DNA from: Escherichia coli
GTDB lineage: Bacteria; Pseudomonadota; Gammaproteobacteria; Enterobacterales; Enterobacteriaceae
Reading direction: 5' to 3' (one strand)
DNA: 64,000 bases
Assembly: GCF_046105845.1 (NCBI RefSeq)
Contig: NZ_CP151004.1
The first letter of the stretch is position 1. Each line of letters starts with the position of its first letter. The notes beneath the pieces were generated by a model. The model was not told where the DNA came from and did no database searches. It saw nothing but the letters and a program-made list of their open reading frames with translations. Of this stretch, positions 37,945-40,131 are shown in pieces. The position numbers and the translations under genes are program-made.

Positions 37945-40131
37945 ATGATTACTCGTATTCCTCGTAGTTCTTTCTCTGCAAATATTAATAATACAGCCCA
38001 GACAAATGAACACCAAACCCTGAGTGAATTGTTTTATAAAGAACTCGAGGATAAATTTTCTGGCAAGGAGCTGGCGACGCCTCTATTAAAAAGCTTCTCA
38101 GAGAACTGTAGACAAAATGGTCGTCATATCTTTAGTAACAAGGATTTTGTCATTAAGTTTTCCACGTCCGTCTTACAGACTGATAAAAAAGAAATTACGA
38201 TAATTAATAAAAATGAAAACACGACACTCACTCAAACCATTGCTCCAATATTTGAAGAATACCTGATGGAAATTTTACCTCAACGCTCAGACGCTCTTGA
38301 TAAACAAAAATTAAATCTAAAATCAGATAGAAAAGAAAAAGAATTTCCAAGAATTAAACTTAATGGTCAATGTTATTTTCCGGGGCGATCCCAAAACCGT
38401 ATAGTATGCCGACACATTGCTGCACAATATATTAATGATATTTATCAGAATGTTGGCAACAAACCCCATAAAGATGATTACTCTTCAGCTGAAAAATTTC
38501 TCACTCACTTCAACAAAAAATGCAAAAACCAGACTTTGGCGTTGATTTCCAGCCGTCCTGAGGGGCGTTGCGTTGCTGCCTGCGGTGATTTCGGGCTAGT
38601 TATGAAAGCATATTTTGACAAGATGGAATCAAATGGCATCAGTGTTATGGCAGCCATATTATTGGTGGATAACCATGCTTTGACGGTCCGGCTAAGAATA
38701 AAGAACACAACTGAAGGATGTACCCATTACGTGGTTTCGGTTTATGATCCAAATGTAACTAACGATAAAATAAGAATCATGAGCGAAAGTAAAGAGGATA
38801 TTAAACACTATTCACTGATGGACTTTATGAATGTAGATTATAGCCTCCTGAAATGGTCAAATGATCATGTTATTAACCAATCTGTTGCAATAATTCCAGC
38901 ACTTCCGAAAGAACAGCTATTGATGCTAAAAGGATCTGTGGATGAAATAACCCCTCCATTATCACCTGCAACGATGAATTTGCTAATGGCAATTGGTCAG
39001 AATCATCAACTTACGCAACTGATGACTCAACTCCAGAAAATGCCAGAACTACATAGAACAGAAATGTTGACTGCCTATAATAGTATTAACCTCCCCGGTT
39101 TATATTTGGCTATAAATTATGGTAATGCGGATATCGTTGAGACTATTTTCAATTCATTGTCAGAGCCAGGATATGAAGAGTTACTCTCGAAAAAAAATCT
39201 CATGCATATTCTGGAGGCAAAAGATAAAAATGGTTTTTCTGGATTATTTTTAGCGATATCACGTAAGGATAAAAATGTTGTAACCTCGATTCTGAACGTC
39301 TTACCTAAACTGGCCGCAACACATCATTTAGATAACGAACAAGTGTATAAATTCCTGAGTGCCAAAAATAGAACGTCCAGCCATGTTTTATACCATGTTA
39401 TGGCGAATGGTGATGCCGACATGCTGAAAGTTGTTTTGGACGCATTACCGTTGTTAATTCGCACATGTCATTTGACTAAAGAACAGGTACTCGATCTCCT
39501 GAAGGCAAAGGATTTTTATGGTTGCCCAGGACTATACCTGGCGATGCAAAATGGACATAGCGATATCGTGAAAGTTATTCTTGAAGCATTGCCCAGCCTG
39601 GCCCAGGAAATTAACATTTCAGCTTCCGATATTGTAGATCTTCTGACCGCTAAAAGTCTTGCGCGCGACACGGGTTTGTTTATGGCCATGCAGCGCGGAC
39701 ATATGAACGTTATTAATACTATTTTTAACGCATTACCCACTCTGTTTCATACGTTTAAATTCGATAAAAAAAATATGAAGCCCCTCCTCCTGGCAAATAA
39801 TTCTAATGAATATCCCGGTTTGTTTTCAGCGATACAGCATAAACAACAAAATGTTGTAGAGACGGTTTATCTTGCTTTATCTGACCATGCACGCCTGTTT
39901 GGATTTACCGCTGAAGATATTATGGATTTTTGGCAACACAAAGCCCCACAAAAATACTCTGCCTTTGAGTTGGCTTTTGAATTTGGTCACCGGGTTATTG
40001 CTGAATTAATCCTTAATACGATAAATAAGATGGCTGAAAGCTTTGGCTTTACGGATAACCCTCGATACATTGCGGAGAAAAATTATATGGAAGCTTTACT
40101 CAAAAAAGCATCTCCCCATACCGTACGCTAA
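37945..40131 (+). CDS. arpA: Ankyrin-repeat protein with a Cys/His-containing N-terminal domain
   Basis: 728-aa ORF in an AT-rich segment; at least seven ankyrin-like repeats ([22 protein letters not shown] and similar); 3' end overlaps aceK. Confidence 0.8.

What the first reader, a model, noticed from the sequence alone, without database searches (positions are those of the whole stretch)
40100..40131. arpA and aceK converge and overlap by 32 bp
The two CDS overlap tail-to-tail, leaving no room for a terminator for either gene. Transcription of each must read into the other, which could give mutual antisense interference between the aceBAK operon tail and arpA.
Basis: seen in the sequence. 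Interest (0 to 1): 0.3.

Follow-up and report, generated by a model that had tools for sequence, protein, structure and literature searches.

The report
Known arpA–aceK tail overlap scar
The 32-base tail-to-tail overlap of arpA and aceK is real, but it is a long-annotated E. coli feature left by the insertion of a foreign gene against the end of aceK, and published data give no sign that the two genes regulate each other.

Summary
arpA/espL4 (+, 37945-40131) and aceK (-, 40100-41836) overlap by exactly 32 bp. The same overlap is annotated in E. coli K-12. The junction is in 4105 of 5426 complete E. coli genomes, and it carries the ArpA1.r primer of the Clermont phylotyping PCR (40111-40130).

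arpA lies on a ~2.5 kb low-GC island. None of 80 other Enterobacterales has it next to aceK, and about a quarter of E. coli lack it. The island's right edge falls inside the overlap (40116-40124). Each gene therefore runs into the other's sequence until the first stop codon. Random tail-to-tail fusions would give a median overlap of 117 nt, so 32 nt needs no selection.

The junction has no terminator hairpin. Published K-12 data place a Rho-dependent termination region 67 nt past the aceK stop, antisense to arpA. The mapped 3' ends of the operon lie far upstream, after aceA and at the AceK-int terminator. arpA is H-NS-bound, and no arpA transcript end has been mapped.

So aceK transcription does read into arpA, but it is ended by Rho. 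Mutual interference is unsupported. Verdict: already known, low interest.

The parts
37945..40131 (+). arpA / espL4 CDS, 728 aa: ShET2/EspL-family N-terminal domain plus ankyrin repeats. Stop TAA at 40129-40131.
   Evidence: RefSeq espL4 at the same coordinates in collinear VCSW7; K-12 arpA
40100..41836 (-). aceK CDS, 578 aa: isocitrate dehydrogenase kinase/phosphatase, last gene of aceBAK. Stop TGA is the complement of 40100-40102.
   Evidence: 578-aa PDB chains 3LC6/3EPS
40100..40131 (.). The 32-bp tail-to-tail overlap of the two CDS.
   Evidence: the same overlap is kept in a divergent arpA allele
37636..40120 (.). Low-GC island (32-44% GC against 52-60% in the flanks) of about 2.5 kb that carries arpA, inserted between the iclR stop and the last codons of aceK. 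No flanking repeats or mobility genes.
   Evidence: absent from CFT073, E. albertii and 79 other Enterobacterales species
40116..40124 (.). Right-hand homology breakpoint between the arpA+ and arpA-less haplotypes, inside the overlap. To its right is native aceK sequence, which supplies arpA's last codons and its stop. To its left is island sequence, which supplies aceK's last 5-7 codons and its stop.
   Evidence: nucleotide comparison with CFT073 and E. albertii; BLAST matches of about 1300 arpA-less genomes begin at window 40122-40125
40102..40107 (.). A6/T6 homopolymer inside the overlap. A frameshifted arpA variant (P0007, 545 aa) diverges here and ends 21 residues later than the comparable 524-aa allele.
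40111..40130 (+). Exact binding site of primer ArpA1.r of the Clermont quadruplex phylotyping PCR. With AceK.f at 40491-40510 (-) it gives the 400-bp arpA amplicon.
39950..40099 (-). Untranslated aceK read-through RNA, antisense to the arpA 3' end. It is G-poor and weakly C>G. It is the window equivalent of the K-12 Rho termination region whose peak is at 4220399(+), which maps to about window 40033.
   Evidence: Adams et al. 2021, Supp. file 2: Rho score 3.0, p 2.1e-8; C/G 1.4-1.6 in the first 130 nt; coordinates mapped by me
41469..41498 (-). Intrinsic terminator inside aceK (the AceK-int 3' end, K-12 4218963). Its sequence is identical in the window. In K-12 it is the last mapped 3' end of the operon before the overlap.
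   Evidence: stem 41498..41477 plus T-run; (premature termination within aceK)
36804..37628 (+). iclR, the ancestral convergent neighbour of aceK. It is now separated from aceK by the arpA island.

Best explanation
The overlap is a structural by-product of how the horizontally acquired arpA/espL4 island is joined to the 3' end of aceK. In the ancestral arrangement aceK and iclR converge tail-to-tail, often with almost no gap. In the lineage leading to most E. coli, a ~2.5 kb low-GC segment carrying arpA replaced about 20 bp between the iclR stop and the last codons of aceK. The right junction lies inside both reading frames. aceK therefore reads 5-7 codons into island DNA to the first stop (TGA), and arpA reads 3-5 codons into native aceK DNA to the first stop (TAA). 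These two run-ons add up to 32 bp. Both tails are unconstrained. Transcriptionally, RNA polymerase that completes aceK continues into the antisense of arpA and is terminated by Rho on the untranslated, G-poor RNA within roughly the next 70 to a few hundred nt. In K-12 no operon 3' end is mapped beyond the intrinsic terminator about 367 nt into aceK. arpA is H-NS-bound and essentially silent under laboratory conditions, so collisions or duplex RNA across the overlap should be rare. Shown here or in cited data: the anatomy, the distribution among genomes, the breakpoint, the absence of a hairpin, the K-12 Rho region and the H-NS binding. Inferred: insertion rather than deletion, and the lack of a regulatory role.
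For: Anatomy and annotation. Foreign origin: GC drops to 32-44% across 37.6-40.1 kb. No arpA homologue lies within 6 kb of aceK in 80 other Enterobacterales species, and aceK/iclR converge in all 78 loci that hold both genes. E. albertii and E. coli CFT073 share the arpA-less junction (AceK ...SVRFV*, 15-16 bp gap to iclR). The junction is present in 4105 of 5426 complete E. coli genomes; about 1300 match only from window 40122-40125 onward. The breakpoint lies inside the overlap. No selection is needed: the simulated run-on overlap has a median of 117 nt, and 32 nt is the 6.5th percentile. The tails are unconstrained. The AceK tail after RQRFxxR[FY] varies greatly in length and sequence across genera. 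A divergent arpA allele keeps the same 32-bp overlap but carries three substitutions that change both tails (ArpA KKA to NKK, AceK MLF to IFY). A frameshift allele extends arpA further into aceK. PDB chain 4P69_A covers only residues 4-571. Transcription: no intrinsic terminator or stable fold at the junction. A Rho termination region lies 67 nt past the aceK stop in K-12 (PMC7815308). The same holds for yjaH/zraP, zraR/purD and rluF/yjbD. The main operon 3' ends are at 4218573 and 4218963, and none is mapped at the aceK end. arpA is H-NS-bound and classed as foreign. It was not expressed in BL21(DE3).
Against: The direction of the event (insertion versus loss in B2/F-type strains) rests on parsimony with outgroups. 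The arpA+ AceK tail 'RYGE..' resembles tails in other genera (Cedecea RFGEV.., Klebsiella RYGN..). The breakpoint could therefore lie a few bases further left, or the haplotype could have arrived by recombination from a donor that already had arpA next to aceK. The Rho region comes from K-12 in LB with 800-nt scoring windows, so its position is approximate, and it was not measured in this strain or on acetate. The BL21 'not expressed' statement concerns a strain whose arpA is disrupted. The rut-like composition is only weak (C/G at the 75th-93rd percentile). No experiment has tested whether deleting arpA changes AceK levels.
Confidence: 0.8

Rival explanations
1. Functional convergent-transcription switch (excludon-like or transcriptional interference). 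When H-NS silencing of arpA is lifted, for example in a host, arpA transcripts that lack a terminator run hundreds of nt antisense into aceK. They lower AceK through polymerase collisions or RNase III cleavage of duplex RNA. Conversely, strong aceBAK induction on acetate suppresses arpA.
For: There is no intrinsic terminator for arpA before a weak candidate 489 nt into aceK (40620-40635). The overlap is kept in 4105 of 5426 genomes and in a divergent allele. AceK is needed only in tiny amounts (AceB:AceA:AceK about 0.3:1:0.003), so it would be sensitive to small effects. Head-on polymerase collisions at convergent E. coli genes are documented in general.
Against: arpA is H-NS-bound. No arpA-sense or aceK-antisense 3' ends are listed in the K-12 tables. 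About a quarter of E. coli and all 80 outgroup species run the same aceBAK/iclR circuit without arpA. arpA itself is often deleted in-frame, frameshifted or disrupted. The overlap length is explained by chance.
Confidence: 0.07
2. Collision-type bidirectional terminator of the kind described by SEnd-seq. The junction would be a programmed site where converging polymerases terminate each other, independently of Rho, helped by an RNA stem-loop.
For: Convergent genes without a canonical terminator are the setting in which this class was described.
Against: That class requires a stem-loop at the boundary. None is predicted here on either strand. The class is Rho-independent, whereas read-through here is bicyclomycin-sensitive. 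It also needs both genes to be transcribed, and arpA appears silent.
Confidence: 0.04
3. Annotation artefact. One of the two ORFs is not a real protein-coding gene, or ends earlier, so there is no true overlap of coding sequence.
For: arpA has no demonstrated function in K-12, NCBIfam has no model for it, and many strains carry damaged alleles.
Against: Both stop codons are fixed by the sequence. The 578-aa AceK sequence is the one deposited for solved structures. The ArpA ORF of 728-734 aa is kept intact across alleles that differ by 7.6% in DNA, and it has a very strong Pfam match.
Confidence: 0.05

Closest known systems
The annotated aceK-arpA junction of E. coli K-12, which is also the Clermont 'arpA' phylotyping marker
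   Same: It is the same locus with the same 32-bp overlap (aceK 4218596..4220332, arpA 4220301..4222487). Primers AceK.f and ArpA1.r match the window exactly and give the 400-bp amplicon. ArpA1.r lies inside the overlap.
   Different: Only minor strain differences: 97-99% identity to most E. coli, and an aceA-aceK spacer of 48 bp instead of 182 bp.
Rho-dependent termination of read-through transcripts inside the antisense of a convergent neighbour (E. coli; Adams et al. 2021; Peters et al. 2012, cited within it)
   Same: A bicyclomycin-sensitive region lies 67 nt past the aceK stop, classed 'antisense arpA'. Three other tight convergent pairs of the same window behave alike. The read-through RNA is untranslated and G-poor.
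   Different: The data come from K-12, not this strain, and the rut-like composition is weak. The neighbour here is an H-NS-bound foreign gene rather than a core gene.
Ancestral aceK/iclR tail-to-tail junction of Enterobacterales
   Same: The aceK 3' end abuts or overlaps a convergent gene with no room for a terminator. In 16 of 78 species aceK and iclR overlap (by 4 bp or 47 bp), and 7 more have gaps of 30 bp or less.
   Different: In the window the partner is arpA rather than iclR, and the AceK tail is rewritten (RYGEMLF against RFV in E. albertii and CFT073).
Collision-type bidirectional terminators between convergent genes (Ju et al. 2019; Wang et al. 2022 preprint)
   Same: A convergent gene pair without a canonical intrinsic terminator.
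   Different: There is no stem-loop, read-through is Rho-sensitive, and one partner is apparently silent.
Excludons (long antisense transcripts spanning divergent or convergent genes, described in Listeria; from my own knowledge)
   Same: In principle a transcript of one gene would be antisense to the other.
   Different: No long arpA transcript has been detected, the two genes have no opposing functions, and the arrangement is a recent insertion scar.

Membership tests
Convergent (tail-to-tail) overlapping CDS pair | Two intact ORFs on opposite strands whose 3' ends share bases | tested here: met
   37945..40131 (+) and 40100..41836 (-) share 32 bp
Convergent (tail-to-tail) overlapping CDS pair | Both ORFs are genuine protein-coding genes | tested here: met
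   AceK: Pfam, NCBIfam equivalog and PDB. ArpA: Pfam Toxin_15 at E 1.3e-95, and the ORF is kept intact across diverged alleles. Translation of ArpA in vivo was not tested.
Horizontally acquired, H-NS-silenced island | Base composition departs from the flanking core genome | tested here: met
   32-44% GC against 52-60%
Horizontally acquired, H-NS-silenced island | Absent from close relatives at the same locus, with conserved flanks | tested here: met
   absent in CFT073, E. albertii and 79 other species; about 1300 of 5426 E. coli genomes lack it
Horizontally acquired, H-NS-silenced island | H-NS occupancy and low expression | not testable with these tools
   Literature only: H-NS-bound in all ChIP studies compiled in PMC3661553; not expressed in BL21(DE3)
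Horizontally acquired, H-NS-silenced island | Mobility signatures (integrase, IS element, flanking direct repeats) | tested here: not met
   no flanking repeats. The only ORF of substance in the island is arpA.
Rho-dependent terminator | Read-through increases when Rho is inhibited | not testable with these tools
   Literature: K-12 4220399(+), Rho score 3.0, p 2.1e-8
Rho-dependent terminator | Untranslated, C-rich and G-poor, weakly structured RNA upstream of the termination zone | tested here: inconclusive
   G 14-15% and C/G 1.4-1.6 in the first 130 nt (75th-93rd percentile of the window).: no stable fold.
Intrinsic (hairpin plus U-tract) terminator at the junction | GC-rich stem-loop followed by a U-run just after either stop codon | tested here: not met
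   none at 39900-40300 in a position to serve either gene
Collision-type bidirectional terminator (SEnd-seq class) | Stem-loop at the gene boundary, and independence from Rho | tested here: not met
   No stem-loop. Published read-through is Rho-sensitive. The class is defined.
ShET2/EspL family of type III effectors (ArpA) | Toxin_15 / ShET2 N-terminal domain | tested here: met
   PF07906 at E 1.3e-95; RefSeq name espL4
ShET2/EspL family of type III effectors (ArpA) | Secretion by a type III system and protease activity | not tested
   No experiment or catalytic-residue check was done here

The most novel reading that the evidence does not exclude
The most novel reading not excluded is a conditional switch. 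When H-NS silencing is relieved, in the host or in strains with an active type III system, terminator-less arpA transcripts invade aceK antisense and reduce the already very small AceK pool. That would couple expression of an effector-like gene to control of the glyoxylate shunt in arpA+ phylogroups but not in B2/F.
Probability: 0.04. Interest if true: 0.5.

Novelty: already known. Interest (0 to 1): 0.1.

Why it matters
It matters little for new biology. The overlap is part of the standard K-12 annotation, and its junction is the target of the most widely used E. coli phylotyping PCR. Two points are useful. First, it is a clean worked example of how an island insertion rewrites the C-termini of both flanking genes and creates an overlap by run-on to the next stop. 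Second, it shows that 'no room for a terminator' is not a problem in E. coli, because Rho terminates read-through inside the neighbouring gene. All four tight convergent pairs in this window show this in published data. For typing, substitutions in the overlap can cause false-negative arpA calls; one search reports one such case (ArpA1.r G17A). The divergent allele seen here changes bases just upstream of the primer site, not within it.

Tried and rejected
1. An intrinsic or bidirectional terminator at the junction: the pattern scan, folding of both strands and Rfam all found nothing.
2. Flanking repeats, an IS element or target-site duplication at the island edges: none found.
3. An NCBIfam model for ArpA: none exists.
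4. A wider set of ArpA homologues, to compare native C-termini: the word-indexed search was saturated by near-identical E. coli sequences and returned only E. coli alleles, so the donor of the island was not identified.
5. Literature search on 'b4017' for expression tables: only unrelated hits.
6. Supplementary tables of Dar and Sorek 2018: not held.
7. A search for papers on arpA and iclR evolution failed on term length and was not repeated.
8. The idea that the AceK tail 'YGEMLF' is entirely island-derived was softened. 'RYGE' resembles tails in other genera, so I report the breakpoint as a range (40116-40124).
9. Rejected: that a different arpA start or frame removes the overlap. Stop codons fix the ends.

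Full report
**Observation.** The window has a + strand ORF at 37945..40131 (728 aa) and a - strand ORF at 40100..41836 (578 aa). They share 40100..40131, which is exactly 32 bp.
- The first ORF ends ...[13 protein letters not shown], with TAA at 40129-40131.
- The second ends ...[13 protein letters not shown], with TGA on the complement of 40100-40102.
- Pfam identifies them as a ShET2/Toxin_15 plus ankyrin protein (E 1.3e-95) and AceK (regulatory and kinase domains, E 1e-111 and 1e-121). NCBIfam calls the second an AceK equivalog.
- The window is collinear, coordinate for coordinate, with E. coli VCSW7. RefSeq annotates espL4 at 37945..40131 and aceK at 40100..41836 there.
- K-12 MG1655 carries the same 32-bp overlap (aceK 4218596..4220332, arpA 4220301..4222487).

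**How common it is.** A 120-nt probe across the junction is covered at 80% or more in 4105 of 5426 complete E. coli genomes, and in 3804 of them at 99% identity or more. About 1300 genomes match only from window 40122-40125 onward, which is the aceK side alone. The overlap also holds the exact site of primer ArpA1.r (40111-40130). AceK.f lies at 40491-40510 on the - strand. Together they give the 400-bp 'arpA' amplicon of the Clermont quadruplex phylotyping PCR. From my own knowledge of that scheme, arpA is the marker that is absent from phylogroups B2 and F.

**Origin.** GC content falls to 32-44% between about 37.6 and 40.1 kb, against 52-60% on both sides.
- In CFT073 arpA is missing. iclR and aceK converge with a 16-bp gap, and AceK is 574 aa ending ...SVRFV*.
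- A scan of one genome per species with AceK returned 80 non-E. coli Enterobacterales loci. None has an arpA homologue within 6 kb. In all 78 loci that hold both genes, aceK and iclR converge.
- E. albertii has the same ...SVRFV* tail as CFT073 and a 15-bp gap. The arpA-less junction is therefore the older state in Escherichia, and the arpA haplotype is most simply an insertion. This step is inferred by parsimony.
- The left edge of the island is just after the iclR stop, at about 37636. The right edge is at 40116-40124. No flanking repeats or mobility genes are present.

The right edge lies inside the overlap. arpA's last codons and its TAA are native aceK sequence. aceK's last 5-7 codons and its TGA are island sequence. 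Each frame simply runs on to the first stop in the other's DNA.

I simulated such run-ons using the antisense of arpA and the antisense of aceK. The median total overlap was 117 nt, and 32 nt was the 6.5th percentile. The overlap needs no selective explanation.

**The tails are unconstrained.**
- After the conserved RQRFxxR[FY], the AceK C-terminus differs in length and sequence in almost every genus. In Salmonella and some Citrobacter it runs into what looks like a REP element (REP identification from my own knowledge).
- A divergent arpA allele (locus L087: arpA 92.4% identical in DNA, flanking genes 96.5-98.5%) keeps the same 32-bp overlap. It has three substitutions within it that change both proteins: ArpA KKA to NKK, and AceK MLF to IFY.
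- A frameshifted allele (P0007) diverges at the A6 run (40102-40107) and ends 21 residues later than the comparable 524-aa allele.
- An in-frame deletion of 204 ankyrin-repeat residues is very common (clusters with thousands of members). This explains the genomes that match only from query base 98.
- One PDB chain of AceK (4P69_A) covers only residues 4-571.

**Transcription.** No intrinsic terminator or significant fold exists at the junction on either strand. The scan finds none in position, z-scores run from -0.9 to +1.0, and Rfam finds nothing.

Published K-12 data show what happens instead.
- Adams et al. 2021 (PMC7815308, Supplementary file 2) list a Rho termination region at 4220399(+), classed 'antisense arpA', with Rho score 3.0 and p 2.1e-8. 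That is 67 nt beyond the aceK stop, or about window 40033 on the - strand. The method uses 800-nt windows, so the position is approximate.
- The first 130 nt of that untranslated RNA are G-poor, with C/G of 1.4-1.6. This is only weakly rut-like.
- The adjacent rows of the same table list Rho regions antisense to zraP, purD and yjbD. These are the partners of the other three tight convergent pairs in this window: zraP/yjaH with a 1-bp gap, purD/zraR with a 4-bp overlap, and yjbD/rluF with no gap here.

Termination by Rho inside the convergent neighbour is thus the ordinary pattern in this region, not something peculiar to aceK.

**Flux through the overlap looks small.**
- In K-12 the mapped 3' ends of the operon are at 4218573 (after aceA) and 4218963. 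The latter is the AceK-int intrinsic terminator, 367 nt into aceK. None is mapped at the aceK end.
- That terminator is identical in the window (41477-41498).
- A BL21(DE3) study reports premature termination within aceK, AceB:AceA:AceK of about 0.3:1:0.003, and arpA 'not expressed at all', although arpA is disrupted in B strains.
- arpA holds a 'promoter island' bound by H-NS in all the ChIP studies compiled in PMC3661553, and is classed there as foreign.
- The tables searched list no 3' end sense to arpA or antisense to aceK.

**Verdict on the interpretation.** It is partly supported.
- aceK transcription does read into arpA, and no hairpin terminator fits.
- A terminator does exist, but it is Rho-dependent and lies inside arpA.
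- Nothing supports mutual interference: one partner is silenced, and the mapped ends of the other lie far upstream.
- The collision-type bidirectional terminators described by SEnd-seq need a stem-loop and are Rho-independent. Neither condition is met here.
- Conditional interference, with H-NS relieved or on acetate, has not been tested. I give it a probability of about 4-7%.

**Novelty and score.** The feature is already known. The only modest additions are the placement of the island breakpoint inside the overlap, which explains both stop codons, and the comparative picture of the aceK 3' end as a labile, terminator-less junction. In 16 of 78 other species aceK overlaps iclR, by 4 or 47 bp. 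Interest is 0.1.

**Limits.**
- The expression and Rho evidence comes from K-12 and BL21 in LB or glucose, not from this strain or from acetate.
- The donor of the island was not identified.
- Other Escherichia species apart from E. albertii were not sampled.
- The exact breakpoint is uncertain within about 8 bp, because 'RYGE' resembles AceK tails in other genera.

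Noticed in passing
window 23020/23021 (yjbD|rluF), 55248-55251 (purD|zraR), 58609/58611 (zraP|yjaH): Three more convergent gene pairs in the window have a gap of 1 bp or less, or a 4-bp overlap. 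Of nine convergent pairs in the window, four are this tight. In K-12 each has a published Rho termination region in the antisense of the neighbour (4231569, 4204911, 4201402).
   Followed up: partly
window 41837-41884: The aceA-aceK spacer is only 48 bp here, as in VCSW7. It is 182 bp in K-12 and 215 bp in CFT073. The K-12 spacer carries a mapped 3' end at 4218573. This strain appears to lack that spacer element, which could alter aceA/aceK polarity.
   Followed up: no
window 39085-39696 (arpA codons 381-584): A very common arpA allele (524 aa; clusters with thousands of members) has an in-frame deletion of 204 ankyrin-repeat residues. Other alleles are frameshifted (545 aa) or diverged (734 aa, 87% protein identity). 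arpA looks polymorphic and may be decaying.
   Followed up: partly
L046, L052 and 11 other loci (Cedecea, Buttiauxella and others), aceK/iclR junction: In 13 species aceK and iclR overlap by 4 bp. In the two loci whose sequence I read (L046 Cedecea, L052 Buttiauxella), a GC-rich inverted repeat (GGCGGG TTA[AG]CG CCCGCC) is built from the last codons of both genes. It could be a bidirectional stem-loop at the ancestral junction.
   Followed up: no
L021, L030, L042 (Pluralibacter MAG, Enterobacter quasihormaechei, Pseudescherichia vulneris): In these species the aceK ORF runs 47 bp into the antisense of iclR. This tail-to-tail overlap at the same locus is longer than the one in E. coli.
   Followed up: no
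L006, L008, L009, L014, L015 (Citrobacter, Salmonella arizonae, Kluyvera, Pseudocitrobacter): The AceK C-terminal extensions (...RRPDKALAPPSGNVRRA*) appear to be encoded by a REP-like palindromic element inserted after aceK. A mobile repeat is being translated as a protein tail.
   Followed up: no
window 46619-46732: yjaA, another Clermont marker that lies between yjaB and the 5S rRNA gene in K-12, is absent here and in VCSW7. The window is thus arpA-positive and yjaA-negative.
   Followed up: no
window 24241-29954 and 4184-5764: A sorbose-type PTS operon with sorE, and a 'SopA family protein' gene, are annotated in the collinear strain. The sorbose operon is absent from the K-12 stretch examined (rluF to pepE).
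   Followed up: no
window 37637-37665: Just after the iclR stop, inside the island edge, there is a 7-bp inverted repeat (GGGCAGA ... TCTGCCC) without a T-run. It could serve as the iclR 3' end structure in arpA+ strains.
   Followed up: no
L012 (contig labelled Edwardsiella ictaluri ATCC 33202): The AceK on this contig is 90% identical to the E. coli protein, and iclR is 91% identical. That is much closer than expected for Edwardsiella, so contamination or mislabelling of the assembly is possible.
   Followed up: no
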